Shown here one piece after another: positions 8,799-54,549 of a stretch of 64,000 nucleotides of DNA. Position numbers and translations under genes: made by a program. This DNA comes from Mnemiopsis leidyi (lineage: Eukaryota), in the NCBI GenBank assembly GCA_048537945.1, contig CM108484.1, forward strand, positions 18,945,034-19,009,033. The letters are read 5' to 3'. The number at the start of each line of letters is the position of its first letter. The stretch's first letter is position 1. Under the pieces are notes generated by a model. That model saw only the letters and a list, made by a program, of their open reading frames with translations, had not been told where the DNA came from and did no database searches.

Positions 8799-9296
8799 GT
8801 AGGTTGATTAGTTTACGATACGTGAATTGAACAAGCTTCTCACATCTGCTTCCGTGTGTAGTTGGTTATTACTAGGTAAAACTTACTGCGACTCTACCAT
8901 TATTGAGGGCACTTAGTATGGCGCGCAACGTCTCGCGCGCGTATTTTGTAGAAAGAACTTATGATTGCTTATGATTGCCTGATCTGCTAATGTAGTCTAG
9001 AAAAAAGATCGATTCAATGTCAATGTTTCATCTGACATCATTTATCCATTATAGAACCTGTGAGAAAATCTGTTAAGTAGTGTGTTATAAAGAAGATAAA
9101 CGAATATTCTTATGAATTCCGACAAAAGCGGCTAGCGCCGATTAATACCGACCGTTTACGATAAAATTAGGGAATGTACCAAATGTAGAGTTTTGCCTGT
9201 TAATCTGTTACCGAGAAATCGCATAACCCGATTTAATATTACGGCTGACGTCAGTGAACACGACAAGATCTTTATGCGTGGATTAAATAATTTCAG

Positions 9297-9389
9297 ATTT
9301 TCATAGACTTAGTGCGTCAAATAAATAGCAAGACGCCAGGAGTGGGAAAGGGAAACGACAGCAGCGGCTCGTGCTGTGTCCTTCTATAG
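9297..9389 (+). CDS. RAP1: Rap1 alternative terminal exon a (IFIDLVRQINSKTPGVGKGNDSSGSCCVLL*; Cys-Cys + CAAX, no polybasic stretch)
   Basis: tttcag acceptor at 9296 in phase with the exon-5 donor. The 30-codon ORF ends in CVLL then TAG. It is homologous to exon b over IFxDLVxQINSK. Confidence 0.7.
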   Translation: MFIDLVRQINSKTPGVGKGNDSSGSCCVLL

Positions 9390-9811
9390 AGTATGAAATG
9401 TGAGCTTTCACTTCCACTGATTGAGCATGTAACGGGTAGTCCAGCAGCCGTGTGCTCACTCGTGCACGTGCGTTTCGCACACTGTGCAGTGTCCACGTGC
9501 ACATGCGTTTGTGAATGTGATTGGACGAGCGTGTGCTGCGCATTTGGCTGATTGTGTTAACGAGAGTGTGTGTTGGTGTGTTTTAGACGAAGATTACCAT
9601 ATCATTTCTGTTGGGTTTCAAAGCCTCGGCAGTGATTTGCTTAGGGGTCAAATTTGTACAGGTTTTGTTTTGTACTGTAAAGCAAAGGTTATCTGTTGGG
9701 AGATTGCACATTCAGCAGTTTTTTACATGATTACATTTTAAAGGGATATCGACGTATTATTTGTGCAGTTCACTTTGCTGAAAGTTGATTCTAACTATCA
9801 TTTTGTTTCAG

Positions 9812-9898
9812 ATTTTCTACGATTTGGTGCATCAAATAAACAGCAAAAATCCTGGAATAGACAACCGAAGAAAGAAGAAAATTTGTGTGTTATTATAA
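9812..9898 (+). CDS. RAP1: Rap1 alternative terminal exon b (IFYDLVHQINSKNPGIDNRRKKKICVLL*; polybasic + CAAX)
   Basis: tttgtttcag acceptor in phase 0. Canonical Rap1-type tail: a KKK stretch followed by CAAX CVLL, then TAA. Confidence 0.8.
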   Translation: MFYDLVHQINSKNPGIDNRRKKKICVLL

Positions 9899-12252
9899 AC
9901 TAGAGCTGTGGAGTTATAGTTATAAAAGAGCACATCACGGACCGTATATCGTAATCTTTAGTAAAAATATAGATACACTTGCACTGGAGCTAATTGTTTG
10001 TTAATAGTCTTGGTGAATGAAAGGGCGTGAACTTTGCCGTCATGCCACGTCGAAATTGTTTGACTGTCACGAATTTTTTTTCCCCGTGAAATCGCCCCTT
10101 TTGATACATGCGTGTGATGCCTGAATCGTTTTCCGTTGTTTCGACCGATTCGCACATTTAATGTTCTGCGTGCGAGAAATTGTTTTTCCAAAGTTATAGA
10201 ATTTACTTCTACTCTTCTTTAGTTGTGATTGATGTCGATAACGTGTATTATGTTTTAGTACTTTACCACCAATTTTGGATGTATATCCTTTTTCGGGCTT
10301 TACACATTTTACCACTTCATACATTGCTATCACGACTGAACTGGCCGTGTTATCACTTGGCCACCCATTTCCCTTGTCTTATAAAAGTTGGAAACGAGTG
10401 TTCCTACCTTTGATGAGATGTTTTTATGCTTCTGTATCGTTTATTTGCATGTAAATAGTAAGATAGTAAAATGTGAGATGGTTTCCAAGTGATTTGTACC
10501 CCTTCTAATGCCGTAGTTTCACAGTATTAAAACATAGGACTTTTGATGAATTAAACAAACGTTGGAAAACCGTGTTTGAAACATCGTTACATCATTTTAC
10601 CGTGTTAAAAGGTTTGTAGTAATTATAACGTATGATTGTAATACTTATGTCTAATATGAAATGTTAAATGAGTAGGGTAGCTTCAAAACTTACTTTTTGT
10701 GATACAAATATGACTGAGCGTTGTCTCGGGACAATTTAAATCAATGTTAACGCTGTAGGATTCACAGTCAACTATGATACACGAGAAATGGGAGTCTTTG
10801 CGGAGCATAAGTTTACTAATTGAGCCTGTGTTCTGCTCCCCTTGAATCATGTGTTTGATTTTTCGGTATATTAATAATCTTAGCAGTTAAGATTAAACTC
10901 TTTCAATTGTTGTTTGATTTATTTCTCAATCCAAAAAAAAGAGATGTACAACAACAAAATTGAATTGTTGAGATCAGATAATTAAGGGAGTCTGGGACTA
11001 GACTACAAACTTTGCATATTTAACTGAATACATATCAAACTAAATAGTGAACTATGGATATATTATCAGGATATTAAACTGGAAAGATTTGATTTGACAA
11101 GATCTAGATGACATCCTGAAACGATACGCTCGCGCTGTACCGGTACGCCTTTACTTGCTAAACCAGCACAGCATAGCCCATACTTTCATAGAGCCATATA
11201 AAGTACGCATACATCGTCAAGCCTGCTACTGCCGCCCGCGCCCCAAAACTGGCATGGAGATGGATCGCGTCGCAACGTAAGTGGTGAGGTTAGGTAAGCT
11301 TCAGATCGCCTGATCATGCAATGCACACCTCAGCTTTGACGAGATTATATCCATCTACCGTTTTAGCTGCGTGAGTCGGGTATCACCGCGACAACCTCAG
11401 CTTTGTTCACGTTGTTAAGCTACGCGCGCCGCGCGGCCACGACGCCCGCGCCGCGTACAGCGTAGCCGCGTAAGCTACGCGCGTGCTGGAGGCTGCCGCT
11501 TTGCGCGGCAGCAGGGCTATAATTAATTAACAACGTACCTGGCAAGCTCAGTTTAGTCACCAGGCGCATGAATATCAAATATACACGCATCTTTTATATA
11601 TTCAGGAAGATATATTATATGATATTTATGATATGTGCGTGAAACTTATCGGACGTTGCGCCGCGGCTCTCTCTACGTTTCTTGTAGGTTGATATTGATA
11701 ACATACTGTCGCGGCCATCACGCGCTGTCACGCATTTCTGACGCGCATCGCCCGTTGATACGTTTCCCTCCGTTTGTTGCAAATTAACAATTAGCCTGAG
11801 GTCCCCAGGTAACGTGAAATCTACAACAGTGCAGTAATTGACGAGATGATATCCGTCTAAGTACGTTCTAGCTTACCGGGCGTTGCGCGGCTCTCTCAAC
11901 GTTTCCCTTTCTACGTTTCCCTCCGTTGCAAAGCAACAATTAGCCTGAGGTCCCCAGGCAAGTTTTAGCCAAACGTTGGGAGAGCAGCAAGCTGCGCCAG
12001 GAAAGCTGCAAGCTGCGAGCCGCACGCAAGTCGCGTCGGCGTAAGCACCGTAATTACTGGTTTCATGCCTAACCAGGGCTTGCTTTGACAGAGCCATTTT
12101 GCGCGCGCCGCGTAGCGCAAGCACTTGTATTATCATTGACGAGATTATATCCGTCTAACGTTCTAACGAAACGTTCAGCTTTAGCTGCGTGAGTCGGATA
12201 TCACTGCGACAATTAGTATTATCATGAATAATTGTTTTACAAAATTTTATAA

Positions 12253-13040
12253 GTTGAAAAGTACGAGGATCAAGCAATATTAATCTTTGATTAATGTAAC
12301 AGCCGGTACACGGTATTGTAATCGATTGTCAGACGTTGCCATGCCTGACCTACTGCCGCAACGCAAGGCAAGTAATCGATAAGTTAAGCACACAAATTTC
12401 AGCATGATTGAATTTTGGAACGAAGTCTTGTTTGTTGATTTTTTATTTAAAACTTTTCAAACTTAGCTCTATAGAACAACAATGTCGAAAAACAGTCGTT
12501 CATATTTTGCTTCCGTCTACAAATTGAGATGGCCCACCAAAACGCGAAAATGCTCAGTAAGCTGAGCTCGCAACATATGGGACCTTTGGCAAAATAATCG
12601 GATCGTGAATGTGAAAAATTTTGAGTATGGAGAAATACATCAGAGAAAAGTTGAAAAGTACGAGGATCAAGCATTAATCTTTGATTAATGTAACAGCCGG
12701 TACATGGTATTGTAATAGATTGTCAGACGTTGCCATGCCTGACCTACTGCCGCAACGCAAGGCAAGTAATCGATAAGTTAAGCACACAAATTTCAGCATG
12801 ATTGAATTTTGGAACGAAGTCTTGTTTGTTGATTTTTTATTTAAAACTTTTCAAACTTAGCTCTATAGAACAACAATGTCGAAAAACAGTCGTTAATATT
12901 TTGCTTCCGTCTACAAATTGAGATGGCCCACCAAAACGCGAAAATGCTCAGTAAGCTGAGCTCGCAACATATGGGACCTTTGGCAAAATAATCGGATCGT
13001 GAATGTGAAAAATTTTGAGTATGGAGAAATACATCAGAGA
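12253..13040. repeat. Tandem duplication: two ~395-bp copies, >98% identical
   Basis: 12253-12647 and 12648-13040 are near-identical, from AGTTGAAAAGTACGAGGATCAAGCA through GGAGAAATACATCAGAGA. Confidence 0.9.
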
Positions 13041-13295
13041 ATTGTGAGCTGTGATAAAATCATAATAAACAAACGAATTAAGATATCTGCTCGACAGTAT
13101 ATTGCTCAAGCGAACTATTTCACCTTTACGGATGACATTTTTGTTTTTGTTCGGATCAGCAACTCTCTTCTCCTTTAATTGCTCAACAAGCTTCTTTCTT
13201 TCAATCCTATCTTCAACGGTTCTATCTGGGGAAATGCAAACTTTTTGTACGCTTCAAAGTATCTCAGTTTGCTCGTTTTTCTTAAAATCTGATTA

Positions 13296-13925
13296 TCAAT
13301 ATCCTGACTCCACACTTTGAATCGCAAAGGGCACGACTCCTGGTTTGATTTGTCCAATTCTCACACACCATGATATCGGTTTTTCCTTAAGCTTGTCTAG
13401 GATTGAAACCAAATTTTCTTCCGGATTCTCGTTTTCAGCCTCTGTAACTCTAAAAACCACAATTTTTCTGCTTCTGTCAACATCCTGGTTAACATGCTTC
13501 ACTGCTGACACAATCCTCTGTGGAGCTAGAGCTGCTGAGCAACTCTCCTGAACAACCGAAGAATAACAGTTCAGTTCTGATACAACACTGTCCTTCACAA
13601 CTTGAGTTTCCTTGTCCTTCTTCTCAGTAAGCTGGTTCTGAAGCTGAACTATTTTCTCCTGATTGCGCATTTTGTCACTCTTGAGCTGCTCTATCTGAGT
13701 AGTCTGCTTAACAGCCAAGCCCATGAGAGGTAAACAACAACGATCAAGAAGATAAAACGCTGTGTACAACCACTCTGACAAATGTTCCTTCGTGAGTTTA
13801 CTATGGTTCAGCGATCTGGCTGTTAACTGTGACAATGCATTAACTCCAGAGGCGCTTCTTGTCAAGTCTCCAACCAGCTTGCCTTTGGTGTTCTTCACCA
13901 TGTCGACAAAATCTCCATAAAACAC
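13296..13925 (-). mobile_element. ORF with a coiled-coil followed by an L1-ORF1-like RRM signature (KIVVFRVTE ... VRIGQIKPGV); possible LINE ORF1 remnant
   Basis: 209-codon ORF. The heptad-rich segment QIEQLKSDKMRNQEKIVQLQNQLTEKKDKE is followed by a motif resembling L1 ORF1p NLRIIGVPE...RIG...RP. Judged by eye only. Confidence 0.3.
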
Positions 13926-14079
13926 ATCGCCCTTCCGATTCCAGTTTGTTCAATACCCATCAAGTAAGCTGGGCTATTGATTTGCATTGTACTTGTATAG
14001 TTCACAAGCTACAACGCCGAATAACCAACACAGCAGTTTGCGCTTATCAGACAAAGATAAGAAAGGGAATAAATTTCAA

Positions 14080-14193
14080 TGTACATGAATAACTTCAAAT
14101 TTTATGACTAAGTTGAGTACAAGTGATACCATCTCGTTAGTATGAAGTATAAGTAACGTTTCATTCTTTAAGCGTAGGACATGATCACACTAT
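14080..14193. repeat. Left flank (segment A) of a ~300-bp dispersed repeat interrupted by the foldback insertion
   Basis: Reverse complement of 30939-31036. Confidence 0.8.
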
Positions 14194-14201
14194 AAAAATT
14201 G

Positions 14202-15626
14202 GGCAAAAGGGTCATATAGTTTGGTGAGTGGGGCAATTGGCGCCATTGGCGCCAATGGATCCACTCAATGGATCAAATGGATGTTCCAATGGCGCCAATG
14301 GCGATGAGGTCAGTGGTGCCAATGGTGGTCACAATCGCCATTGGCGCCAATGGATGTGTTCCATTGGCGACAATGGCGATCGCCATTGGCGACCATTGGC
14401 GCCATTATAATGGATCCATTGGAGCCACTCGATGGCGATACCTTTTTCACGATCGCCACTCAGAGTGAATGGATCATTTGGAATTCCAATGGCGACAATG
14501 GTTCCAATGGCGACAATGGTTCCAATGGCGACAATGGTACCAATGGCGACAATGGCGACAATGGTACCAATGATGACAATGGTACAAACAATGGCGACAA
14601 TGTTACCAATGGCGACAATGGCAATAATGGCACCAATGGCGACAATCAGGAAATAAGTGTACCGACGGTGGTGCCAATGGTGACAGTGGCACCAATGGCG
14701 ACTGCAGTGGTGCCAATGGCGACAATGGTACCAATGGTGACTATGGCGCCAATGGTGACTATGGCGCCAATGGCGACAATGGCACCAATGGTGACTATGG
14801 CGCCAATGGCGATAATGGCGACAATGGAGATAACCATCAAACCATGTTATAATTATGCCGATTTACCGGCATTGATGATTGACGATTATCGGTATAATTA
14901 TTTCCTGATTATATTTATCGCCATTGGTGCCACTGTAACCATTGGTGCCACTGTCACCATTGGTGCCACTGTCACCATTGGTGCCACTGTCACCATTGGC
15001 GCCACCGTCACCATTGACGCCACTGTCACTATTGGAGCCACTGTCGTCAATGGCTATAATCCGGCATAATTATTTCCTGGTTAGCGCCATTGTCGCCATT
15101 GGTACCATTGTCGTCATTGGCACCATTGTCGTCATTGGCACCATTATCGCCATTGGAGCCTTTTCTGCCATTGGTAACATTGTCGCCATTGGTACCATTG
15201 TTGGTTCCATTGTCGCCATTATTACCATTGTCGCCATTGGTACCATTGTCGCCATTAGTACCATTGGCGCCAATGTCGCCATTGTCGGTACCATTGTCGC
15301 CATTGGAACCATTGTCGCCATTGGAATCATTGTCGCCATTGGAATTCCAAATGATCCATTCACTCTGAGTGGCGATCGTGAAAAAGGTATCGCCATCGAG
15401 TGGCTCCAATGGATCCATTATAATGGCGCCAATGGTCGCCAATGGCGATCGCCATTGTCGCCAATGGAAAACATCCATTGGCGCCAATGGCGATTGTGAC
15501 CACCATTGGCACCACTGACCTCATCGCCATTGGCGCCATTGGAACATCCATTTGATCCATTGAGTGGATCCATTGGCGCCAATGGCGCCAATGGCCCCAC
15601 TCACCAAACTATATGACCCTTTTGCC
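14202..15626. mobile_element. 1.43-kb palindromic foldback transposon built of CCAATGGCG/CCATTGGCG 9-bp units, with an 8-bp TSD
   Basis: The outer termini GGCAAAAGGGTCATATAGTTTGGTGAGTGGGG and its complement are flanked by direct AAAAATTG copies (14194-14201 and 15627-15634). An uninterrupted copy of the target, CAATTTTT on the opposite strand, lies at 30931-30938. Confidence 0.85.
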
Positions 15627-15634
15627 AAAAATTG

Positions 15635-15815
15635 TCAAGTTCAAAATTTAACATATTACTCAAAATTAAATGTGCAAACCATAACATCATCAAAAAATAT
15701 TCAATCTTATTTATTTTTAACTATCTAACGATAAAATATCTGCAACGAAGTTGAAATGAATGAATCAATCAAACTTTTTCAAAGTAGCAATCAATTAGCA
15801 ATAAATATGGAAAAT
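15635..15815. repeat. Right flank (segment B) of the same dispersed repeat
   Basis: Reverse complement of 30749-30930. Confidence 0.8.
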
Positions 15816-15852
15816 TTATATAAAAAGTATAAGTATAACGTATAAGGATGTT

Positions 15853-16974
15853 GTGAAATTCCACAAGTTTCTTGACAGTCTTCATCCATCAGCTAAGTTT
15901 GATCGGGAGGAAGAAAGTGATGGGAAATTGAGTTTTCTGGATACAGTAATAAAATGGATAGAGGATCCCAACCCAAACATCTCAACATGGATCAAACCCA
16001 CTGACAAAGGACTACTCTACAACTACTCGTCCTTTGTGCCGGATAAGACGAAAACTGCCCTGATATCCACGTTAGTATATTGAGCCTACCGAATAGCCTC
16101 TGATATGCTGACTTTCCACCTGGATATCACTGTCTTGAAGAACAAGTTAACATCTAATGGGTTCCTCACTCATCTTATCGATATGCACATTGGAGCTGTG
16201 CTTGGACGACATCATGCCAACATCAGTCAGCCAAGCACAACGGACGTTCCTCGCAAAGAAGTACTGGTCGTGATGCCCTATCTGGGACCCGTTTCACACT
16301 TGGTCAAAAAACAGCTGACAAAATTAGTTCACAAATTCTATTTTTCAGTTGAACTCAAATTTGTCTACCGGCGTGGATTTAGAACAGCCAACATGTTCAA
16401 CTACAGGGACAAATTTCCTCTCTCCTGCAAGTCCATGGTCGTTTATTATACTCAGTGTAAACAATGTGGGCCCAGTGCGGCTTATTGGCAAAACTGTCAA
16501 TACTGTATGCGGCTTATTGGCAAAACTGTCAATACTGTATATGAACGATTTTTTGCTTCAGGGACTGGTCATCACGCTTCTGACAACAAGAACAGTGCAC
16601 TTCTAGATCACCTATTCAGGACAGGTGATCCAAACTGTGACTTCGTTTTCAACGACTTAAAAATTCTTGACACAGGAAGTTATAATGAACAAATAAGATT
16701 TATTGAGAGCATTTTACTTAAGTACTTACCCCAGTATTCTATGAGACTACATCATGAACTCAAATGCGACGAATCTCTTTGTAACCAAATACACAATCTA
16801 GCTGCACGAAGAAATTACATTAATAAAAGTAACCTAATTACAGACACAGAATCATCAGACTCAAGAGCGGGAACTAGTACACCCCCACAGACACCACCCA
16901 TTCCTTATACACCGGTAGTAAAAGAGTTCACCATAAAAGAAACCAGCCCAATAAACAACGAAGGTATGCCATAA
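15853..16974 (+). mobile_element. Penelope-like retroelement 3' fragment: RT thumb (LSFLDTVI...KPTDKGLLYNYSSFVP) then GIY-YIG endonuclease (VVYYTQCKQC...IGKTVNTVYERF), degenerate
   Basis: The two domain ORFs (15853-16083 and 16105-16974) are in different frames. A 31-bp tandem duplication (16478-16508 and 16509-16539) sits inside the GIY-YIG region. Confidence 0.6.
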
Positions 16975-18444
16975 CACAACAGCCATCAATCTGACATTCC
17001 TTGTTACCTCTTTCCACTCGTAAAGTAAATATTAACCATTATTAATATTCAAACTTGAACACGATATCCTTAAACTAAAAATTGACATACTATAGCAAAC
17101 CAATACACAAGAATCTACCTATCAACCTGATCCCTCCCGAAGAAATAACATTGACTAGACTGACCCATTTCCAGAACTGAGACCTAGAACGGAAACAACT
17201 CAGATCGTACCCCCGTTACCTAGTATGATAAAAGGAAAAGAGGCTATAACCACAGAACCCGAATTACCAGAACTGTATCAGAGCACTGAATTACCAGAAC
17301 TGTATCAGAGCACTGAAACTCCCCCCCCTCACTCCACCGTTAGTAGAAAAGAAGTCATCAAGCCCCAACCTTACTGAAGGTATGACTAAATACTTTAGCC
17401 ATCAGTCTGGCAGTCAAACTTATCCCACTTATCTCTTCTCACTAGCAACGTTCATCATTTACTACTGTTAACATCTATGTAGTGCACAAACTTTCCCACC
17501 TAAAGATTTCTTGATGAAGAGCTCTACTTTCAACTTAAATTGCGCAAACACTTCAATTACAATCACGCTCTAAACGACTCTCGTTCTTAAATCTGTTTCT
17601 ATCGCTTGTGACTAATATACTGCTAACACGCACTACTCACTAGGAGAAGAGCAAGAGCCGCCCACACCAACTTTCAGAGTTGGGATCTGCTTGAAGTCAC
17701 TGAACACAACTCTGGAACAAGCAGACTTATAGATAACATCAGACTCATTCTACTGAAAGCCACGCTAGAAACACCTGCCTTTGCAGACCTAGAGGTCACT
17801 AACAACATCACTGACATCAAAGGCAATAAGATCATCATAAAGACTAAGAACTTTCAAACCATAAATCTGGTGAGACATCATGAGTGTAAACGACAGATAT
17901 ACTACCATCATCGAAGAGGACCTTCCAGGGTTACGTGTTAGAATTTTACTACCTGACAAGAGAGACAGATCAGCGCCAGACATCACTCAGGATTTGGGCA
18001 ACGTTCAAGGGTTAGGTCTCACCGACACAAACCACGGTTAGACTAGATTGTAATACCACTATTTGTAACAAGCCTGCTGGGGCTTGGACTAGATTGAAAT
18101 ACCACTTTTTGCATTAAGCCTTCTGGGGCACTGCAGTTAATGACGATTTAATGAAATTTTATATTTAACGAAACTGTATATTTAATGAAATTTTATATTT
18201 ATTGAAATTTTGAGCTTTTTAGATAATTTTTAGAAAATGATAATTTTTAGATAATCTTGAGCTTGTTAGATAAAACGTGTGTTGAGCTGACAATGATTAA
18301 TTACCAATCTAAGCGAGTGACAACTAAATCTAGCGATAATCCGAGTTTTACTACAACTAAGTACTAAATAACAAGTTACTAGACTACGCAAAATTAGCAT
18401 CCCAACTACACTACGGACTCCTCTATTACTTCCCCTTCAACAAC

Positions 18445-20740
18445 ACACTGTTACTATAGCAACGACACACTGTTACCAAGCAACCCCACACTGTTACCAT
18501 AACAACTACAAACTGTTACTATAGCAACGACACACTGTTACCAAAGCAACCCCACACTGTTACCATAACAACTACAAACTGTTACTATAGCAACGACACA
18601 CTGTTACCATAGCAACGACACACTGTTACCATATCAACCCCACATTGTTACCATAACAACTACAAACTGTTACCATAGCATCGACACACTGTTACCATAG
18701 CAACTACAAACTGTTACTATAGCAACGACACACTGTTACCATAGCAACGACACACTGTTACCAAAGCAACCCCACACTGTTACCATAACAACTACAAACT
18801 GTTACTATAGCAACGACACACTGTTACCATAGCAACGACACACTTTTACCATATCAACCCCACACTGTTACCAAAACAACTACAAACTGTTACCATAGCA
18901 TCCACACACTGTTACCATAGCAACCTCACATTATTACCAAGCAACTACACGCCGTTGCCATATCAACTACATGACACACTGTTAGTGTTACAAAGTAACT
19001 GCACACTGTTACCATAACAACATCTCTCTACTACCATAGCAACTACACACCGTTACCTTAGCATCGACTCACAGTCACCATAGCAACCACACACTGTCAC
19101 CATAGCAACTACACACTGTTACCATAGCAACTACAAACTGTTACCATCGCAACGACACCCTGTTACCATCGCAACGACACCCTGTTACCATAGCAACCTC
19201 GCACTGTTACCATAGCAACAACACACTGTTACTATAGCAACCCCACACTGTTACCATAACAACGACACACTGTAACCATAGCAACTACACACTGTTACCA
19301 AAGCAACGACACACTGTAACCGTAGCAACGACACACTGTAACCGTAGCAACCTCACACTGTTACCATAGCAACAACACACTGTTACTATAGCAACGACAC
19401 ACTGTTACCATAGCAACGACACACTGTAACCATAGCAACATCACATTATTACCAAGCAACTACACGCTGTTGCCATATCAACTACACACTGTTACTATAG
19501 CAACCCCACACTGTTACCATAACAACTACACACTGTTACCAAAGAAACGACACACTGTTAGCATAGCAACCTCACACTGTTACCATAGCAACAACACACT
19601 GTTACTATAGCAACGACACACTGTTACCATAGCAACGACACACTGTAACCATAGCAACATCACATTATTACCAAGCAACTACACGCTGTAGCCATATCAA
19701 CTACACACTGTTACTATAGCAACCCCACACTGTTACCATATCAACTACACACTGTTAGTGTTACAAAGTAACTACACACTGTTAACATAACAACATCTCT
19801 CTGCTACCATAGCAACTACACACTGTCACCATAGCATCAACCCACTGTCACCATAGCAACTACACACTGTCACCATAGCAACTACAAACTTTTACCATAG
19901 CAACTACAAACTGTTACCATTGCAACGACACCCTGTTACCATAGCAACCTCGCACAGTTACCATAGCAACAACACACTGTTACTATAGCAACCCCACACT
20001 GTTACCATAACAACTACAAACTGTTACCATAGTAACGACACACTGTTACCATAGCAACCTCACACTGTTACCATAGCAACAACACACTGTTACTATAGCA
20101 ACGACACACTGTTACCATAGCAACGACACACTGTTACCAAAGCAACCCCATACTGTTACCAAAGCAACCCCACACTGTTACCATAACAACTACAAACTGT
20201 TACCAAAGCATCGACACACTGTTACCATAGCAACATCACATTATTACCAAGCAACTACACGCTGTTGCCATATCAACTACACACTGTTACTATAGCAACG
20301 ACACACTGTTACCATAGCAACGACACACTGTTACCATAGCAACCCCATACTGTTACCAAAGCAACCCCACACTGTTACCATAACAACTACAAACTGTTAC
20401 CATAGCATCGACACACTGTAACCATAGCAACATCACATTATTACCAAGCAACTACACGCTGTAGCCATATCAACTACACACTGTTAGTGTTACAAAGTAA
20501 CTACACACTGTTAACATAACAACATCTCTCTGCTACCATAGCAACTACACACTGTTACCTTAGCATCGACCCACTGTTACCATAGCAACTACACACTGTC
20601 ACCATAGCAACCCCACACTGTTACCTAAACAACTACAAACTGTTACCATAGCTATAGCATCGACACACCGTTACCATAGCAACCTCACATTATTACCAAG
20701 CAACTACACGCCGTTGCCATATCAACCATACACTGCCGAC
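18445..20740. repeat. 2.3-kb minisatellite, 22-bp unit ACTGTTACCATAGCAACGACAC (~105 units, higher-order periodicity)
   Basis: Direct reading of the sequence. Unit variants recur in ~130-bp higher-order blocks. Confidence 0.95.
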
Positions 20741-21028: not shown

Positions 21029-21493
21029 ATGTCATAAAATACATAAACAAACTAGAGCACGAACGGCGTGGATAACCTCAGTGGGCGCGCGCGGGTTCCG
21101 TCGGTGCTGCTTTGCAGTAGTCCGCGGGCGCGCTCGGCCTGATGGGGTGCGCGCTGCGACGGCGAAGTGGGATCGGCCACACGCTGATTAACATGGCAGC
21201 CAAACCGGGGTCTATTACCCGTAAGTAGTATTGTTTGTCGTTCTGACCATCGATTGCCTATATATCCTGCACACTTGTCAGAAGGGGTAAAATAAAGCAA
21301 TCTGATTGGTTTTACGCTCGCTGTCACGAGGATTTAAGGCCGTTTATTGGCTAAGATGTGTCTCGTGACTTTTGTCACGTGATTTATATAGAGCTTTAGA
21401 CCTTCAGCAGTTGGCTCAATTTCGAGGTAACGTGATCAGAATGTCATGTGACGAATATCACGAGGAGCTTGATACGTTAGCACTTTTGGGTCA

Positions 21494-21523
21494 AATTTAA
21501 GCCGCGCGCGCGGCTTAAATTTT
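21494..21523. other. Perfect 30-bp hairpin palindrome AAATTTAAGCCGCGCGCGCGGCTTAAATTT, ~270 bp inside the left TIR end
   Basis: Self-complementary. Its counterpart at 30066-30093 has one fewer GC unit. Confidence 0.9.
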
Positions 21524-22626
21524 TTCCTTTGAGCACAAGGTACATTGCACTATTCAATTCGACAGTTCGAACAATGACACAAATTGAATTACAAGATCTA
21601 CATTATTCCAATATAAATAATATTTCGACAATAATTTAAAACACAATAAAAGTAAGAAAACTATTAAACAGTATCTTAACAATAGCAATACAATAACAAC
21701 AACACAAACGCAAAATATTTTAAGCTAAATATCTAAGTATGTAGTGCTTATACCGTCGTTAAGGACCTTGCGTTTGCAATAGAAATATGATAACCCGCTT
21801 CTTTCCATCGCATAACTCAACATATTATTGTCCTTGAGTATGAATCCTCGGTTCGTCGAGCTCACGCTTTGTTTTGTGTGTAAAACGGAGCGGAAGTGAT
21901 CGATGGAGATTTTCGCGGCTTTGTTTATCCCTTTAGTGGAACACTTTTCTTTCTGTCTGTTGTCGGGATTGAAACAAAAGTATGTCTTCGCTGCAAGACC
22001 AACAAATCCGCCACCGCTCCACTCAATCTTAAAGAGACCTGGAAATAATCATACATTATTCCATTGATAGAATAATCATGGTGCCGTTATTTGATCATTA
22101 AATCGGTATCAGACGGAAAACAAAGAATCAAGATTATACATTAACTTGAACGGAAGCGATTGAATATCAGTATTATTAGATGTGACATATTACATATTAC
22201 ACTCACCCGGTGTACGTTTATCATAGGCGGCATTCTCAGCTGTATCAGACCTGGGAAACCAATGGCTTTTTGCTACCAACCACTCCGATTTGAGGTCACT
22301 TGTCACTAACTCGTCCAGAGTTTCCGCTGCCAGAGCCATGTACAGTGAATCTGTGGATAATTTATAGCATTTATCGTCGTTTGACTGTCACTAAGGCTGT
22401 CACACGGTGTAGAACCGTAGAAATTGTCAAAAAGCCGAGCAGGTTGTTAACTAAAGCCGCGCGCGCGCGCGGCGCGCTAATGCGCTTGTAAGTGATGTGC
22501 TTTATACTCCAATAAATCGTTTCGCGCGCAAAAAACGCAAAATGAAGAAGAAGACCGTTTTTCAACTTTAAGCAAATTCTTTATTTTCCGCATCATATTT
22601 GAATAAAATATCGTAATCTGACAAAC

Positions 22627-22783
22627 CTGTGTCCATTTCACATAACGAAAACAGAGGACGAGGGATGTATCGGACAAGGACGTCAAAATAAAACGCTAAC
22701 ATTCGTAGCTTAGCATAGGAGTATACAAAGAAACCAATCTGTATTGGCAAATTGTGTCGTATTGATTTCTTCTTAGAAGTTAC
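22627..22783 (-). CDS. polB candidate exon 7 (VTSKKKSIRHNLPIQ...YFDVLVRYIPRPLFSLCEMDT)
   Basis: Open phase-0 frame from a tttcag acceptor to a G|GTTTGT donor. MDT plus a following GAT could complete a DTD motif. Speculative. Confidence 0.25.
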
Positions 22784-22889
22784 CTGAAATTGATGTCGAT
22801 AGAATGTACAAGATGAGTTGCTTGCCCAAATTATTGAATAGATCGCTCAACAAGGGTACACTGGAAATCATTGCGACAATTATAATTAC

Positions 22890-23029
22890 CTCGAAGCAGG
22901 TATCCGACAGTTCATCCAATGTTGAAAATCTTGGACTGTTTACAAGGTCCGATGCCGCTTCCACGTCGACAATCTTAACATCCACGTGTCGAGACTTGTT
23001 CATGATGCTGTACCCGTAAAATGAATTGC
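22890..23029 (-). CDS. polB exon 6 with Pol motif B (KLIG|NSFYGYSIM ... LDELSDTCFE)
   Basis: The cccag acceptor restores the frame so that KLIGNSFYG is read across the junction, matching Kx3NSxYG. The following SDTCFE is motif-C-like but lacks the second Asp. Confidence 0.6.
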
Positions 23030-23173
23030 CTGGGATACAAGTCTTATGTTAAAAGAATGTTTTTGTTGCTAGTTCCTTGACGTCATTACTTTCATTTCTT
23101 GAGCAACACTTCGAAAACGCGAATATAATCAACAAAACAGAAAACCAGTAATTTAAGATTTTGCGAGACTTAC

Positions 23174-23817
23174 CAATTAATTTACTGGTCTCAGCAACGA
23201 TTTTCAATGCCGGATCAGTATCCCCAGCTCTACGGTCGTTTGACACGCGATCAGCGAACGCTTTGAAACAGTTTTTTGGTGCAAATTCAATGATCTGATG
23301 AATTCTGGACACCTCAAGGCCGTGTTGAATATACCAAGTCAATAATGGGGTAATCATTAAAATTTTTTCACCCCACATTGACCCGATAAGATATCGGGTG
23401 GGTTTGAAAGACTTCCCAGTAGAACTGAGAAAGTCAGTCATATGGTCGCCAATATCATTCTCGGTGACAGTGGTATTTTTAAATACCGGCGGCATCTCAC
23501 CAAAGTGAGATTTGAGGTTTTCAGGAACTCGAACATCACACTGAACTGCACCAAAAATCCTTCCATCTAAAATAGCGGACAAGATCTGATCTTGTGACAT
23601 CCTATACCGATATTCTGTAGGGTAGACGTAGCTGTTATGGGGCACGTGATCTCTCTTGTGTTGAGACCAGGAACACTCCCACATCTCCACAAGCTGATAT
23701 CCGAGACTACGTAGGTACTTGCTGGTCTCTTCTGTCTGCTTATATTTCTCATTAAGTGTCCTCCCTCCGACCTTGACGTCACGATTGTCTGGTTTGCATG
23801 TAGGGCATCCGTGATAC
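23174..23817 (-). CDS. polB exon 5, inside the left TIR (RYHGCPTCKPDNRDV ... RRAGDTDPALKIVAETSKLIG)
   Basis: tttag acceptor in phase 2 links ...GFC-R-YHGCPTC. G|GTAAGT donor at 23173, phase 1. Confidence 0.65.
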
Positions 23818-24092
23818 CTAAATTTAACCACGTCATGCATTTACAATATTTGATTTACTTAAAACATATATTCTAGATATCTTTACTGAACAATCATATT
23901 AATTGATTCCTTAACTTAATATATTAACTCACCAGCAGCCATGAAACTGGTATATCGTGTTGCTGGCTCTGAAATTAAAATATCGCCATAAAAATAGTTC
24001 ACCTTAAAGAACAAATTTAAAGTTGAAAGCTGAAAAAAGAATCAAAATTAGACGCTTGGTATCGAGCCAGGAATATAAAACCCAAAACTTAC

Positions 24093-46349: not shown

Positions 46350-46563
46350 CTGGGCAGGGCTTGTTTATTTTACGTGGTCTTTTTGTCTAGCTGTGATGGA
46401 GAGTTCTTGACATTTAAAAGGCGAATGATCTAGAAATAGACATGTTTACAATTGCTAAAATTATGTCCCATTCGTGAGAAGATAATATTGTGGTGTGTAC
46501 TAACGCCTTTAACTAACTACACCACTAACTAATTAACAAATTTAAACTAATAATCTTACTAAC

Positions 46564-46791
46564 CGTTAATAATTGGGAGAAAAGCGACGACACTCTGGTA
46601 CTTCTCAGCCACTTTACTCATGATAATTCCCACGCCACTAGAGATAAACATGGCTAACAATATTGGTACCCAGCCTTGCAGTACTGCAGGTCTGGCGTAT
46701 CTGTTGTGCCAGGAGTAGATGAGAAGAGGTGGTATAACTAACACTAACAGTCCTATAACCACACTGCATATCCATATTTGTGTGTTCTTAT
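46564..46791 (-). CDS. SLC41: SLC41 exon (D-KNTQIWICSVVIGLLVLVIPPLLIYSWHNRYARPAVLQGWVPILLAMFISSGVGIIMSKV...FLPIIN)
   Basis: Matches human ...[27 protein letters not shown]...FTPVING. Confidence 0.85.
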
Positions 46792-46989
46792 CTGAAATGT
46801 TTAAGAAAACGTTACACCAAATAATTAACACTAAATAGTTAAAATAAATCTTGTTTAAAAATGGCGATCAACATTCGTCAAAGATTTGCCTTGGAAGTAA
46901 TTGTACTAAAATCAGTTCAAGATGCATTGTGGGTAGGTAGATATGTTGCAAAAAAAGTGAATGCTTCCCTCGGATTTTTATATTTGAAC

Positions 46990-47136
46990 CTGGGATATGA
47001 AAAAGGAGGCTGCCGACTATCGAGAGTATTCCAAGAGTAATGGAGTCTCCAAGACTAGCCGCAATAGGAGTGGATATGTTGTCTGGATTACACTGGTAGT
47101 GGGCCGAGGCTAGGACTATTGCGCACATCGTACCAC
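46990..47136 (-). CDS. SLC41: SLC41 exon (G-GTMCAIVLASAHYQCNPDNISTPIAASLGDSITLGILSIVGSLLFHIP)
   Basis: NPDNxxTPIAASLGD motif. tttcag acceptor. G|GTTCAA donor. Confidence 0.85.
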
Positions 47137-50100
47137 CTGAAATTTGTCTGGTTGTATTTGATGTCCGTAAATAATAAGTTAAAATACCTGGTAAATAAGT
47201 TAATTTAGTTAAGAAATTTTATCCATAGCCACATGGAAAACGCGCAGTGCGCGCACTCAATAGAGTTTATGTAACAAGAACGCTTTTAACCTTTCCCCAG
47301 AAAAATCCTTTCGCGTGTTTCTTATCCTACGATAATGCCACAATTCTCACCCAGCAAATGAATAATATTCATCTGTCGTGTCATATGATCAATTTGGTGA
47401 ACTGATAAGCGATAAGGAATCAGGGTCGTTTTAATCCCATAATATTGATTCGCATACCATAATCAATTATTGCGAAGTTTCTCGAAGAACTGACTTTGGG
47501 CTTTGGCGGAACTTCACATTTCACACCAAAAAACTAGATCAGATAAACTTTGGACGATTTTTTGGTAATCTTTTTTTTGGTAATTTTTTAGGCACATGCT
47601 CTAGTTATGATAATCACGCACCATAAGACCATTTAGCAAAATCCGATGTCGCGATATCTCGTATTTCGTAACTAACTCTCACATGTTGAAATTATGTTTT
47701 GTACTATATATACTAGTGCTATCCGTTTTTTCGGGAGGATTCGGTCAAGTTTTTCATGTGACAGCGATTTATAAGGAGCCAGATACGACCAATCTATTTC
47801 GCAAAACGCTGTCACGAGACACGAAAAAATTTTCCGACTCCCCCAATGAATTCTGACCTCTATAGAGTACTGCAAATGACACACATGGTATTGTTGGGAT
47901 AACTGTGACTGATTAAGGCAGTGATTTTAATCCTTATTTGCGTAGCCTTGTATCCGGTACGCAAGGCGGTGATGTGAACAGGTTCTCAGATCGCATTGTT
48001 TATTGGATCACATCACGAGCCGGCTCACCTCGTGGAGTGACAGAGACTACAGTTAACATTTGGGAAGGAAACAACCCTGTAAGCTGTATGGAGGTCATGC
48101 ACCTTGAGCACACAAAGTAAAAATGTTTCCCTGGGTAAGACTAGCAATCTGTCTATCTTACCTTGATTTACCTTCTTAACACCGTCATTACACACTAATT
48201 ATACAGCTTGTTTATTTAGCTATATTCCAAGTTTACATATTATGAGCATGTTTAAAATTAATTTGATTAGGAAGTTCAATACTATAATAGCAAGAATATG
48301 CAGTATGATAGCAATAATGTGCAGTGTAATAGCAATAATATTTTAGAAGACCTTTTTTAAACGGCCATTCAGATTTTCCAAAAACAGTGTCAGTCACTCT
48401 ACCTCGACAGTAAGGTATATTTTGAGGAACAGTTTTCATGTCTTGTTTTGGAGGTTTTGTTAAAAAACTTTCAAAGCTGTTGAATAAGTACAATAATTTA
48501 GAGGCGTTAAAAAACAGCCGTACAGATGCTCCAAAAACAGTGTCAGTCACCTTACCTCAGTAATCGGAGAATATTTTGAGATTGCCGAACGGTATTCATT
48601 TCTTGTTTTTGACATATTGCTCAAAACCCCTTAAACTTAGACTAAATGCGTTATTTTAGAGGGCACTTCAAAACGGCCGCAAAGATTTTGCTGAAACAAT
48701 GCCACCAAAAGAAAATTACGACTATAAGTCGCTTTTTATGGAGCGTGGAAAAACATAATAATTGGTTCAGCAATAATACTATAAGATCATCATTGAATGC
48801 TCGGCGCTCGCATACACCTGTCCAAATTAGGTCTTGCATTCTCGTCCCATACAAGTCAGAAAATATTCTCCTAACCTTATTCGCATATTTTCCGAAAACA
48901 AGCCTGGCCTTAAAATCCCGCGTCCCCGGTCCCGTCCTTGATGTCAGGTCATGGATACCAAACTTGAAAACCAGGATAGAAACAGGTGAGAACGTAACCA
49001 CAACTACCTACAAACTTAAAATGTTTTCTAAAATAATCTAAATCTCAATTCAAATCTAAGTATCTTTTAAATAAATTGTTCATTCATTGATTCATAAATT
49101 GTTCGATTTCATCGATTTCGGATTTCCAAAAAAAATCATTTTACTTAACGGCGAATTCCTCCTTTACATCGTTACTTAACGTGTCATCCCTCAAGAACGT
49201 TTGGAGAAGTTCGATAAGACATGTGAAGAAGTTAAGTATCTCGCGAGAAACCTTGTTTAACAGTGTGCTAATCAGTTAGACCATGTCTGATTTGTGTATT
49301 TATATTCATGTTAATAACTGACTGAGGCTAACATGTTTTCTTGACGATCATGATCGTTAGCTCTATCATTTTTGCGACAGTTGATAATTGGGACAGGTAC
49401 CTGAACAGTATAAACTTAAGACTCCTCATTTGAGTTACAAGTTCTTATAGGTATGGGAGGAATTTACATCAGACAACAAGTAGAAGAAAAATAACAAGAA
49501 GAAAATCGCTGAGATCCTACGACAGATACCACGAGTAGACCAGACCAGACCAAACAACTTCTCTTCACGACACAGACAAGGGTAAAGTCACGGTACTCAG
49601 ACGGAAGAACATCTCATGTGATGCTAATGAATAAACATTTCTTAATTTATGAGATTGTTATAAATTTCTGGTTTCCACTTCAACAATTCTTTAAAATAAT
49701 AAATTTTAATTGTTACCAGGAGGCAGCTGGATTCAAAATACACGCTGAAATAATATGTTTATATAGTCTTCAAAGGGTTAATCAGACTCAGAGGAAGTTA
49801 GACCATATGGCTCCAGGGTAAATTTCTACAATAGTGTAACTTCTTAGGCAGCTGGTTATTTTTCATGGTTAGGGTGACAATTTCAACTGTAAAATGGGTC
49901 AAAGTACTGCCTCCAGATTTTAGTGCTAACTGACTTTAGCGATTTAATTTGTCTACCAAATTAAGTACACTGGAATGTGTAAAGTCTCCAGGGGATGTAT
50001 ACATCTATGTTACCAAATATAATGAAGTTTATACTTGTACACACGATGTTATGAAGTTTATCATTGTACACACAATGGGATTATACATACTTCGCCAATG

Positions 50101-51081
50101 TATATGAACAAAGTTAAGATAATCAAATATCCAGATCACCAATTTCTTTCTTCTTGTTTTAGTAATATATTGTGTTCCTGGGCATATGTTTCAGTATTAG
50201 AAAATGATTTAAATCAAGAGGCTCAACTTTTCGCTCTTTAAATAGAGACGTCATCAATGAATCATTCTCGAACATGACGAAAATAAGAATTATGATATTT
50301 GGTTTCGGAAGGAAGTGTTATGACTAAGATTCGATGTAGTTGCCTCTAGGTTACCAATCCTCCAACCACACTTCACTTTTTTCTCTGTCTTCTACGTCTA
50401 TTTACATTCTGTACACTGTACATCAGCTGTGTGAGTGTGTTGTAACCAATATCGGTGTAAGTTATATCGGTACATACACATGAACAAACTAATCGAATAT
50501 TTGTAAAGTGCCCAAAACTCTTATTTTACCGGAAGTTTACTGTTTTGTTATATCAATACATTTATGTTTTCTCCCTATAAGTAGGGAGAAACATAATCGT
50601 ATGAAAGAAGGCCCAGCACTGTAGGGAACCATATTCTCTTATCATCTGATCTTAGGGTGCTATTAGATTTTCAATTCCTGTTTCTTGTTATCGCTACAGG
50701 TCGGCAGTATAATTAGCAGATTTCCTTCGCCCGGTACGGCGGCTCTATTTAAACCTTATCTCTCAGTCTCTCAGTGTAATTTGTACAGCAGTGCCTCCTC
50801 TTCTTCGTAGGGATTAATGCACGGAAATTGAATGTAGGTACAAATACAAACATGAGAATATATATATATAATATGAAATCATGTATGTTCAATATTCAGT
50901 GTGCATTTCAAACTCCTTATCTACATTATCAATACCACCTGACTCGCTATACAAGACCTACTCAAGTTTATTTTGTTTTTTCGTTCTGCGCCCTTTCTCT
51001 TGCATTGACAGTTACCTTCTTATTCACGACATCTAGATGTTACTCCAGAATTCAGGTCGCAGATCGTATCCGATCTTCACG

Positions 51082-51124
51082 ATGATGATTTTGCGTTTTC
51101 TCATCGGACCTGTTCTAATGATAG
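51082..51124 (+). CDS. GAA: GH31 alpha-glucosidase exon 1 (MMILRFLIGPVLMI; signal peptide). An in-frame ATG at 51037 is also possible.
   Basis: Hydrophobic h-region. G|GTATGT donor, phase 1, which pairs with the next exon's acceptor. TATA-like CTATTTAAA at 50743. Confidence 0.5.
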
Positions 51125-52124: not shown

Positions 52125-52478
52125 CGGGCGTGGAGAGCAGTTACAAAGCAGTCAATGTGACACACACAGACACAGAAATCAGAGCTACTCTCCTATCTCC
52201 CGACACAGAGATGATATCCCCACTTCTCCTGATAATATCTCTATCTAGCGAGACTACAGTGAGAGTCAAGATAAAGGACCCCAATAACGAGAGATATGAG
52301 GTCCCCTTCCCAGAGACTGAGTATGAGGCTAAGAGAAACATGACAGGGAGTCCTAGATACAAGGTAGTGGTTAATGAGGCTCCCTTCTCGATACAGGTCA
52401 GCCGGGCGGACAGTGGCAGAGTCATATTTGATACAGCAGATCAAGAACTTGTTTTTCAGGATCAGCTTCTTTCCTTAG
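52125..52478 (+). CDS. GAA: GH31 alpha-glucosidase exon 2, N-terminal beta-sandwich (…VRVKIKDPNNERYEVPFPETEY…FQDQLLSL)
   Basis: Matches human GAA TIKDPANRRYEVPLETPHV...FADQFLQLST. cctcag acceptor. G|GTACAC donor. Confidence 0.85.
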
Positions 52479-54521: not shown

Positions 54522-54549
54522 GTATATACTTACACACTACTTACTTACT

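What the first reader, a model, noticed from the sequence alone, without database searches (positions are those of the whole stretch)
14194..15634. Foldback transposon insertion verified against an intact paralogous empty site in the same window
The 1425-bp palindromic element has termini GGCAAAAGGG... and is made of NF-Y-like CCAATGG/CCATTGG 9-mers. It interrupts a ~300-bp dispersed repeat. The uninterrupted inverted copy of that repeat at 30749-31036 has a single CAATTTTT exactly where the insertion lies. The two AAAAATTG copies at 14194 and 15627 are therefore a true 8-bp target-site duplication. An 8-bp TSD points to a hAT-like transposase, which is unusual for an FB-type palindromic satellite element. 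The element's arms contain dozens of perfect CCAAT boxes.
Basis: seen in the sequence. Interest (0 to 1): 0.6.

Follow-up and report, generated by a model that had tools for sequence, protein, structure and literature searches.

The report
Foldback-type transposon insertion, 8-bp duplication

Summary
Window 14202-15626 is a 1425-bp foldback element with 340-bp terminal inverted repeats (3 mismatches) and inner 9/18-bp CCAATGGCG arrays. It is flanked by AAAAATTG on both sides. With the element and one AAAAATTG removed, the flanks align ungapped (279/288) to the inverted paralogue at 30749-31036, which carries one copy of the octamer.

I recovered related copies from public assemblies by searching six-frame translations of the repeat arms. 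Five further copies at unrelated sites have 8-bp duplications (four perfect, one 7/8); one copy has none. One excision restores a reverse-transcriptase reading frame. The stated refutation test therefore fails, and this is transposition.

The hAT inference is weak. All copies start 5'-GGYAAAAG, not hAT's YARNG. Five of six duplications read nA....Tn, the opposite of the Hermes bias. An 8-bp duplication, a GG terminus and a 340-bp repeat fit Merlin. Long repeats with 9-15-bp subrepeats and 8-9-bp duplications also fit animal Mutator-like/foldback elements. No transposase partner was found.

Repeat-arm peptides match annotated Mnemiopsis leidyi "hypothetical proteins", so the host is probably a ctenophore. 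This is a new family of a known kind, of modest interest.

The parts
14194..14201 (+). [quoted passage not shown]
   Evidence: It is identical to 15627-15634, and the empty paralogue has one copy.
14202..15626 (.). Foldback-type non-autonomous transposon, 1425 bp, with no credible coding capacity
   Evidence: ORFs through it (14341-15069, 14942-15499) are stop-free only because the repeat period is 9 nt. Pfam gives only sub-threshold collagen/hexapeptide low-complexity hits.
14202..14231 (+). Conserved terminal 30 bp, GGCAAAAGGGTCATATAGTTTGGTGAGTGG. The family consensus is GGYAAAAGKGTCAnnnAGTTTGGTGARTGG.
   Evidence: Alignment of 10 ends from 5 copies; search.
14202..14541 (+). Left terminal inverted repeat, 340 nt, with GCCAATGGCG/CGCCATTGGC sites in both orientations and an 18-bp perfect palindrome CAATGGCGATCGCCATTG
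   Evidence: 3 mismatches to the right arm. One search shows about 80% identity to L002 copies, with blocks of up to 47 nt invariant.
14486..14827 (+). Left inner tandem array, 9/18-bp unit CCAATGGCGACAATGGCG (about 18 double units)
   Evidence: Tandem Repeats Finder.
14828..14920 (.). Short AT-rich non-repetitive middle segment containing the hairpin tip
14921..15045 (+). Seven copies of the 18-bp unit CCATTGGTGCCACTGTCA (92% matches), pairing with 14700-14833
15085..15343 (+). Right inner tandem array, the same unit in inverted orientation (CCATTGTCGCCATTGGTA)
15287..15626 (-). Right terminal inverted repeat, 340 nt
15627..15634 (+). Right copy of the target-site duplication, AAAAATTG
14096..14201 (+). 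Left part of the interrupted 288-bp host repeat
   Evidence: 95.3% to 31036-30931.
15627..15816 (+). Right part of the interrupted 288-bp host repeat
   Evidence: 97.9% to 30938-30749.
30749..31036 (-). Uninterrupted paralogue of the host repeat. The empty site is the single octamer at 30931-30938.

Best explanation
The feature is a non-autonomous, foldback-type cut-and-paste DNA transposon. It inserted into one copy of a duplicated 288-bp sequence after that duplication.

Mechanism:
- Shown: the element is bounded by conserved 30-bp ends (GGYAAAAGKGTCA...GTTTGGTGARTGG).
- Shown: each insertion is flanked by an exact 8-bp duplication of an AT-rich target, consensus roughly nAAAWTTn.
- Shown: removing the element plus one duplicate restores the original sequence, and in one related copy a reading frame.
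- Inferred: a DDE-type transposase encoded elsewhere binds the repeated GCCAATGGCG sites in the 340-bp arms and synapses the two ends. It cuts at GG/CC and joins the ends to target strands staggered by 8 bp. Gap repair then makes the duplication.
- Inferred: the inner 9/18-bp arrays are expansions of the same binding motif by slippage or unequal exchange, which gives the hairpin architecture.

Superfamily (not resolved, because no partner was found). My estimates are:
- Merlin-like: about 0.4. It fits on a GG terminus, a uniform 8-bp duplication and a repeat length within the Merlin range, and Merlin is present in ctenophores.
- Mutator-like/foldback: about 0.25.
- hAT: about 0.1.
- P: about 0.05.
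- Another or an undescribed superfamily: about 0.2.

The host is probably a ctenophore.
For: - Empty-site proof within the window.
- Arms: 340-nt arms with 3 mismatches, and a single hairpin fold.
- Independent copies in other assemblies:
  - L002:9168-10247 has duplication AAAACCTG. Excision restores ...KKP|VYAVFVDFRKAFDSV of a reverse transcriptase.
  - L003:11053-13320 has GATATTTT and a nested truncated LINE.
  - L005:~146-1214 has CAAATTTT/CAAATCTT and comes from a Tara Oceans contig.
  - L006:59-720 has CAAAATTC.
  - L007:9143-10551 has GTTTCATG.
- Termini are conserved across all copies.
- CCAATGG/CCATTGG columns are 92/98 invariant between the window and L002 arms, against 170/232 elsewhere (Fisher p = 1e-5). 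The heptamer is still the top 7-mer in the divergent L005 copy.
- Merlin hallmarks from PMC8101967: repeats of 24-462 bp, a conserved terminal 5'-GG, 8- or 9-bp duplications usually fixed per family, and Merlin hits in Mnemiopsis, Pleurobrachia and Beroe.
- Host clue: the arm-encoded peptide matches KAL5268077.1 [Mnemiopsis leidyi] and sibling UniParc entries at 65-85% identity.
Against: - No autonomous copy or transposase of any superfamily was found in the window or in about 105 kb of related loci. Pfam searches found only reverse transcriptases, a Tc1-like DDE_3 and a Helitron Rep.
- Superfamily assignment therefore rests only on terminal dinucleotide, duplication length and repeat architecture. 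Merlin and animal Mutator-like elements share all of these.
- Aedes Muta families match the architecture (long repeats with 9-15-bp subterminal repeats, 8-9-bp duplications) at least as well.
- Most described foldbacks are Mutator-like.
- The Merlin paper's ctenophore contigs, as held (some files cut), contain no matching termini.
- One copy (L004:9527-10224) has no duplication.
- Only six duplications were read.
- Transposase binding to the CCAATGG motif is inferred from conservation only. Concerted evolution of tandem repeats could inflate that signal.
Confidence: 0.85

Rival explanations
1. One reading: a hAT-superfamily non-autonomous element. A hAT transposase makes the 8-bp staggered cut, and the foldback shape is a secondary elaboration.
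For: The duplication is exactly 8 bp in every readable copy, as is typical of hAT (PMC3014272). From my own knowledge, hAT elements such as Ac carry repeated subterminal transposase-binding motifs in both orientations.
Against: Termini are GGY, not YARNG, in all 10 ends examined. The 340-bp repeats are far longer than typical hAT repeats (my own knowledge). Five of six duplications are nA....Tn, whereas Hermes prefers T2/A7; other hATs show little bias, so this point is weak. No hAT transposase was seen in the held sequence.
Confidence: 0.1
2. A Mutator-like (MULE/Foldback-Phantom clade) non-autonomous element, like Drosophila FB, Tetris or Aedes Muta derivatives.
For: Most foldback elements described so far are assigned to Mutator (PMC4079207). 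In Aedes aegypti all 14 MULE families have 8-9-bp duplications and 12 have repeats over 100 bp. Ten of those 12 carry 9-15-bp subterminal tandem repeats, and they have hundreds of non-autonomous derivatives (PMC5225508). This is the same architecture as here.
Against: All six duplications are 8 bp, with no 9- or 10-bp cases. MULE families usually mix lengths, although six is a small sample. No MULE transposase was found in the held sequence.
Confidence: 0.25
3. Not a transposon: a palindrome created locally by replication fold-back or inverted duplication, with the flanking octamers arising from microhomology-mediated repair.
For: The window does contain another large near-perfect inverted duplication (21224-24042 / 27547-30361), so palindrome-forming processes, or assembly artefacts, operate here.
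Against: The same element with the same 30-bp ends lies at unrelated loci in independent assemblies. Each has a different 8-bp direct duplication, and one cleanly splits a reading frame. Local palindrome formation cannot explain that.
Confidence: 0.02
4. The CCAAT-rich arrays are primarily host regulatory DNA, with NF-Y or another host factor binding dozens of sites. The element spreads or persists because of that function.
For: There are 57 CCAAT/ATTGG in 1.4 kb, and the heptamer is preferentially conserved. In M. leidyi, DNA-transposon insertions are reported in over 90% of looped promoters, and a CpG-containing GC-rich motif bound by CTEP1/2 marks loop anchors (PMC12221973).
Against: No expression, binding or positional data are available. 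The context GCG-CCAAT-GGCG differs from the NF-Y flank preference RRCCAATSR as I recall it. The loop-anchor motif sequence is not in the accessible text or supplements, so no match could be tested. Copies sit inside other transposons, not at promoters.
Confidence: 0.05

Closest known systems
Merlin superfamily DNA transposons (related to IS1016/IS1595)
   Same: They share a terminal 5'-GG, an 8-bp duplication that is uniform within the family, and a repeat length (340 bp) inside the reported 24-462-bp range. Internal tandem repeats are reported in several Merlin families, and Merlin sequences are present in ctenophore genomes (PMC8101967).
   Different: No DDE_Tnp_IS1595 transposase is linked to these ends. 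I found no described foldback-type, almost wholly palindromic Merlin derivative in the searched literature. No match to these termini was found in that paper's held supplementary contigs.
Animal Mutator-like/foldback elements (Aedes Muta1-14 and derivatives; Drosophila FB, Tetris; Meloidogyne Tm1)
   Same: [quoted passage not shown]
   Different: Here all six duplications are exactly 8 bp. From my own knowledge, FB gives 9 bp; Tetris gives 8-10 bp. There is no sequence similarity and no MULE transposase partner.
Galileo (P superfamily foldback-like element of Drosophila)
   Same: It is a foldback-like element with long, internally repetitive arms that carry multiple transposase (THAP) binding sites. 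It shows that foldback architecture arises independently in different superfamilies (PMC3688188 and PMC3573991 abstracts).
   Different: From my own knowledge, Galileo makes 7-bp duplications and has CA-type termini. Here the duplications are 8 bp and the termini are GG.
hAT non-autonomous elements and MITEs
   Same: 8-bp duplication.
   Different: YARNG termini are absent, the repeats are about 15 times longer than usual, and the target bias is opposite to that of Hermes.
Sea-urchin TU elements (Liebermann et al. 1983; recalled from memory, not retrievable here)
   Same: A marine-invertebrate foldback family with long modular inverted repeats made of short tandem repeats. I recall an 8-bp duplication being reported.
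   Different: As I recall, the tandem repeats there are in the outer domain of the arms, whereas here they are in the inner domain. There is no sequence comparison, so this remains a lead, not a test.

Membership tests
Foldback-type TIR transposon (structural class) | Long inverted arms make up most of the element, so it can fold into one hairpin | tested here: met
   The arms are 340 nt at 99% identity. The two halves are 609/747 identical, and the single-strand fold is -736 kcal/mol.
Foldback-type TIR transposon (structural class) | Arms contain short tandem subrepeats; the middle domain is short and non-coding | tested here: met
   There are 9/18-bp arrays. The middle segment is about 90 bp. 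Pfam gives only sub-threshold low-complexity hits for the ORFs.
Foldback-type TIR transposon (structural class) | Mobility shown by target-site duplications at independent loci | tested here: met
   Six copies have 8-bp duplications and one has none.
hAT superfamily | 8-bp target-site duplication | tested here: met
   6/6 readable duplications are 8 bp.
hAT superfamily | Terminal motif YARNG (PMC3014272) | tested here: not met
   All ends begin GGY(A)AAAG. The phasing is fixed by the empty site.
hAT superfamily | Partner encoding a hAT transposase (BED finger, hAT dimerisation domain) | tested here: inconclusive
   None was found in the window or held loci. The host genome as a whole could not be searched.
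Merlin superfamily | 8- or 9-bp target-site duplication | tested here: met
   8 bp in 6/6 copies. Criterion from PMC8101967.
Merlin superfamily | Repeats begin with 5'-GG | tested here: met
   Criterion.
Merlin superfamily | Repeat length 24-462 bp | tested here: met
   340 nt.
Merlin superfamily | Autonomous partner with a DDE_Tnp_IS1595 transposase sharing the ends | tested here: inconclusive
   It was not found in held sequence or in the Merlin paper's held supplementary contigs. There is no searchable ctenophore genome among the tools.
Mutator-like (MULE/Foldback) superfamily | Long repeats (over 100 bp), often with 9-15-bp subterminal tandem repeats | tested here: met
   Criterion from PMC5225508.
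Mutator-like (MULE/Foldback) superfamily | 8-10-bp duplication, usually of mixed length within a family | tested here: inconclusive
   The length is within range but uniformly 8 bp in six copies. The sample is too small to exclude a mix.
Mutator-like (MULE/Foldback) superfamily | Partner encoding a MULE transposase | tested here: inconclusive
   None in held sequence.
P superfamily (incl. Galileo) | 7-8-bp duplication and CA-type termini (my own knowledge) | tested here: not met
   The duplication length fits, but the termini are GG.

The most novel reading that the evidence does not exclude
The family's repeated, CpG-bearing unit GGCGCCAATGGCG may be more than a transposase site. It could be, or could have seeded, a host architectural or regulatory motif in ctenophores. 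One candidate is the methylation-sensitive GC-rich motif with two CpGs that CTEP1/CTEP2 bind at Mnemiopsis chromatin-loop anchors, where DNA-transposon insertions are reported in over 90% of looped promoters. Foldback copies would then act as portable clusters of dozens of anchor sites.

A more modest novel reading is that this is the first foldback-type derivative of the Merlin superfamily. I put that at about 0.4, with interest about 0.4 if true.
Probability: 0.04. Interest if true: 0.75.

Novelty: new member of a known kind. Interest (0 to 1): 0.3.

Why it matters
The biology is ordinary: a non-autonomous foldback transposon with a clean insertion signature. Four things make it mildly useful.

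1. It documents a foldback family in what appears to be ctenophore genomes. The searchable literature has no paper combining 'ctenophore' and 'foldback'.
2. Its hallmarks fit Merlin at least as well as Mutator. If a partner confirms this, Merlin would be added to the superfamilies in which foldback architecture evolved independently.
3. Its stop-free 9-nt periodicity produces long spurious ORFs. These are already deposited as 'hypothetical proteins' of Mnemiopsis leidyi (for example KAL5268077.1), which is an annotation-hygiene point.
4. Hairpin elements of this kind are known drivers of rearrangement and assembly breaks. One related copy lacks a duplication and another is a composite.

Tried and rejected
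- Other copies or ends in the window: none.
- JGI metagenome DNA scans with two conserved-arm patterns: 0 hits each, and the cap is now exhausted.
- First six-frame peptide search with the window's arms: only one hit. Repeating it with the L002 arms gave three more.
- Whole-library phmmer with an 82-aa arm peptide: 18 hits. Four of them (P0132, P0133, P0136, P0141) were unrelated low-complexity proteins.
- Autonomous partner: Pfam on all large ORFs of the window and loci found only RVT_1, a Tc1-like DDE_3, a Helitron Rep and host genes. The 1737-aa ORF next to the L004 copy looked promising but is a Helitron.
- Merlin-paper supplements searched for the terminal 10- and 11-mers: only chance matches. 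One look-alike is internal to a Ptychodera repeat.
- Yuan & Wessler 2011 could not be retrieved, so terminal-motif criteria were taken from other papers.
- Sea-urchin TU literature is not in the library.
- The CTEP loop-anchor motif sequence is not in the text or supplements.
- L008-L013 are truncated, eroded or too divergent to read duplications.
- Rejected: a TSD-bounded Polinton reading of the 14.1-31.0-kb inverted structure. No flanking duplication is visible, and the 699-aa ORF has no Pfam or PDB match.

Full report
**1. The observation**

The filled site reads ...cactat AAAAATTG | GGCAAAAGGGTCATATAG ... CTATATGACCCTTTTGCC | AAAAATTG tcaagttc... The other locus reads ...cactat AAAAATTG tcaagttc...

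After deleting 14202-15634, the joined flanks align without gaps to rc(30749-31036) at 279/288 (97%). The junction falls exactly on the single octamer. The boundary cannot be shifted by a base in either direction without losing the duplication. The element is therefore 14202-15626 (1425 bp), starts GG and ends CC.

Its arms (14202-14541 and 15287-15626) are 340 nt with three mismatches. The two halves are 609/747 identical overall. As a single strand it folds into one hairpin of -736 kcal/mol.

Inside the arms lie arrays of a 9/18-bp unit: CCAATGGCGACAATGGCG on the left and its complement on the right. There is also a block of seven 18-bp units, CCATTGGTGCCACTGTCA, near the centre.

CCAAT/ATTGG occurs 57 times (40 per kb, against 1.76 per kb in the rest of the window). 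CCAATGGCG/CGCCATTGG occurs 28 times here and nowhere else in the window. No other copy or solo end is present in the window.

**2. What the window is**

The window is animal nuclear DNA rich in repeats (microsatellites, minisatellites). It holds:
- a LINE reverse transcriptase at 32033-34420;
- two large exons of a GH31 alpha-glucosidase at 53.4-55.6 kb.

The best named relatives of the GH31 gene are only 50% identical (Saccoglossus, Aurelia). An unnamed ENA contig is 93% identical. That contig (L001) is syntenic with window 46.5-61 kb at about 85% nucleotide identity, so it comes from a related species.

**3. Finding relatives of the element**

No tool searches eukaryotic DNA directly. I therefore translated the arms in six frames and searched the protein collection, reasoning that gene callers would sometimes have run ORFs into such stop-poor repeats.

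This gave P0121. Repeating the search with the arms of that first relative gave P0122-P0124. An exhaustive phmmer search with an 82-aa arm peptide gave 18 hits, about 14 of them genuine. Fetching the encoding contigs gave these copies:

| Copy | Length | Duplication | Notes |
|---|---|---|---|
| L002:9168-10247 | 1080 bp | AAAACCTG | Sits inside a LINE reverse-transcriptase ORF; excision restores aaa aaa cct gtt tat gca gtt = ...KKPVYAV(FVDFRKAFDSV) |
| L003:11053-13320 | 2268 bp | GATATTTT | A 5'-truncated LINE is nested inside |
| L004:9527-10224 | about 700 bp | none | Lies beside microsatellites and a Helitron |
| L005:~146-1214 | about 1070 bp | CAAATTTT / CAAATCTT (7/8) | Divergent copy on a Tara Oceans contig |
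| L006:59-720 | 662 bp | CAAAATTC | |
| L007:9143-10551 | 1409 bp | GTTTCATG (outer ends) | A full copy, 28 bp, then a mini copy |

L008-L013 are truncated or eroded.

Six of seven readable copies therefore carry an 8-bp duplication, each different, at unrelated sites. The element is mobile, and the octamers are true target-site duplications.

**4. Family features**

- Ten aligned ends give the consensus GGYAAAAGKGTCAnnnAGTTTGGTGARTGG.
- The window and L002 arms are about 80% identical over 330 nt, with invariant blocks of up to 47 nt.
- Columns lying in CCAATGG/CCATTGG are 92/98 invariant, against 170/232 elsewhere (Fisher p = 1e-5).
- The heptamer is still the commonest 7-mer in the divergent Tara copy.

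This pattern is what one expects of repeated subterminal transposase-binding sites. Concerted evolution of repeats could contribute to it.

Five of the six duplications have A at position 2 and T at position 7, a symmetric AT-rich target of roughly nAAAWTTn. By my arithmetic the chance probability at 30% A/T each is about 3e-5.

**5. Which transposase?**

An 8-bp duplication is compatible with several superfamilies.

- hAT: 8 bp with YARNG termini (PMC3014272).
- Merlin: 8 or 9 bp, terminal 5'-GG in all families, repeats of 24-462 bp, and several families with internal tandem repeats. Merlin hits are reported in Mnemiopsis, Pleurobrachia and Beroe (PMC8101967).
- Animal Mutator-like elements: in Aedes aegypti all 14 families have 8-9 bp and 12 have repeats over 100 bp. 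Ten of those 12 carry 9-15-bp subterminal repeats (PMC5225508). Most foldbacks are assigned to Mutator (PMC4079207).
- P: 7-8 bp (my own knowledge).

The GG terminus is fixed unambiguously by the empty site. It fails the hAT and P terminal hallmarks, and the target bias is the reverse of Hermes (PMC8721813). Merlin and Mutator both pass every structural test I could apply. The uniform 8-bp length (6/6) tilts slightly toward Merlin.

No transposase of any of these superfamilies occurs in the window or in the roughly 105 kb of related loci. The Merlin paper's held supplementary contigs contain no matching ends. My estimates are Merlin-like 0.4, Mutator-like 0.25, hAT 0.1, P 0.05 and other 0.2.

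**6. Host**

Arm-encoded peptides match, at 65-85% identity, NCBI KAL5268077.1 'hypothetical protein [Mnemiopsis leidyi]'. They also match a set of UniParc entries from the same accession batch. Further copies come from marine metagenomes, including Tara Oceans.

The family is therefore a ctenophore transposon, and the window is probably from a ctenophore. It may not be the annotated M. leidyi assembly, since the GH31 gene found no Mnemiopsis match. This is an inference.

**7. The CCAAT / NF-Y idea**

The pentamers are real but are a by-product of the 9-bp unit. As I recall the NF-Y flank preference (RRCCAATSR), the context GCG-CCAAT-GGCG fits it poorly. Nothing here tests binding.

One speculative lead concerns M. 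leidyi chromatin-loop anchors. They carry a methylation-sensitive GC-rich motif with two CpGs, bound by CTEP1/2, and over 90% of looped promoters contain DNA-transposon insertions (PMC12221973). The unit GGCGCCAATGGCG also has two CpGs. The published motif is only in a figure, so no comparison was possible. I give this 0.04.

**8. Verdict**

This is a genuine, cleanly documented insertion of a non-autonomous foldback-type DNA transposon. It belongs to a family not described in the searchable literature, but to a well-known kind. The hAT attribution and the claim of unusualness are not supported. Interest is modest (0.3).

Noticed in passing
window 21224-24042 and 27547-30361: A 2.8-kb inverted repeat, 99.8% identical (2819 aligned columns), flanks a 3.5-kb spacer that holds most of a 699-aa ORF (24920-27019, minus strand) with no Pfam or PDB sequence match. 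Identical 263-aa ORFs sit in each arm. The 288-bp repeat pair that provides the empty site is colinear with, and outside, these arms, so the whole 14.1-31.0 kb region looks like one large inverted duplication or a giant element. An assembly artefact is not excluded.
   Followed up: partly
TSDs of window, L002, L003, L005, L006, L007 copies: Five of the six 8-bp duplications have A at position 2 and T at position 7, and four begin with AAAA in one orientation. This is a symmetric AT-rich target preference (about nAAAWTTn), opposite to the Hermes hAT bias.
   Followed up: partly
window 14341-15069 (+), 14942-15499 (+); proteins P0125-P0131, P0128 = KAL5268077.1: The 9-nt repeat period keeps several frames of the element open for 185-250 codons. 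Such spurious ORFs from related copies are deposited as 'hypothetical proteins' of Mnemiopsis leidyi and in metagenome protein sets.
   Followed up: yes
L007:9143-10551: Composite arrangement: a full copy (9143-10203), a 28-bp spacer made of degenerate end fragments, then a 320-bp mini copy (10232-10551). The perfect duplication GTTTCATG is only on the outermost ends. This suggests either transposition of the pair as one unit or an internal rearrangement.
   Followed up: partly
L004:9527-10224 and flanks: The only copy without a target-site duplication. It abuts a duplicated (CA)n/(CAGA)n-rich segment on the left. It lies about 1.6 kb upstream of an open frame (11842-17226; called gene of 1737 aa) that encodes a Helitron Rep (Helitron_like_N) and runs to the contig end. 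This is consistent with a post-insertion rearrangement.
   Followed up: partly
L003:11340-13190: A 5'-truncated LINE (RVT_1 fragment plus 3' region) is nested inside the foldback copy, replacing most of its centre and right arm. The composite still has a perfect 8-bp duplication.
   Followed up: partly
window 18438-20735: A 2.3-kb minisatellite of about 104 copies of a 22-bp unit (CAACTACACACTGTTACCATAG), with strong negative GC skew across 16-22 kb. It lies between the interrupted repeat and the left arm of the large inverted repeat.
   Followed up: no
window 46544-61158 vs L001: Synteny at 80-98% (mostly about 85%) nucleotide identity with ENA contig ERZ25070731:ctg5346, including the GH31 alpha-glucosidase exons (53.4-55.6 kb). 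This is a related species or a deep haplotype, useful for identifying the source organism.
   Followed up: partly
window 12251-13041: Two tandem copies of a 394-bp unit (98% identical), just upstream of an unannotated 209-aa ORF (13296-13925, minus strand) with no Pfam match.
   Followed up: no
window 15850-16974: Immediately right of the interrupted repeat there is coding-like sequence (a 289-aa ORF at 16105-16974, with an internal perfect 32-bp tandem duplication at 16476-16540). It has no Pfam hit. To my eye it resembles a Penelope-like retroelement fragment, but this is unverified.
   Followed up: no
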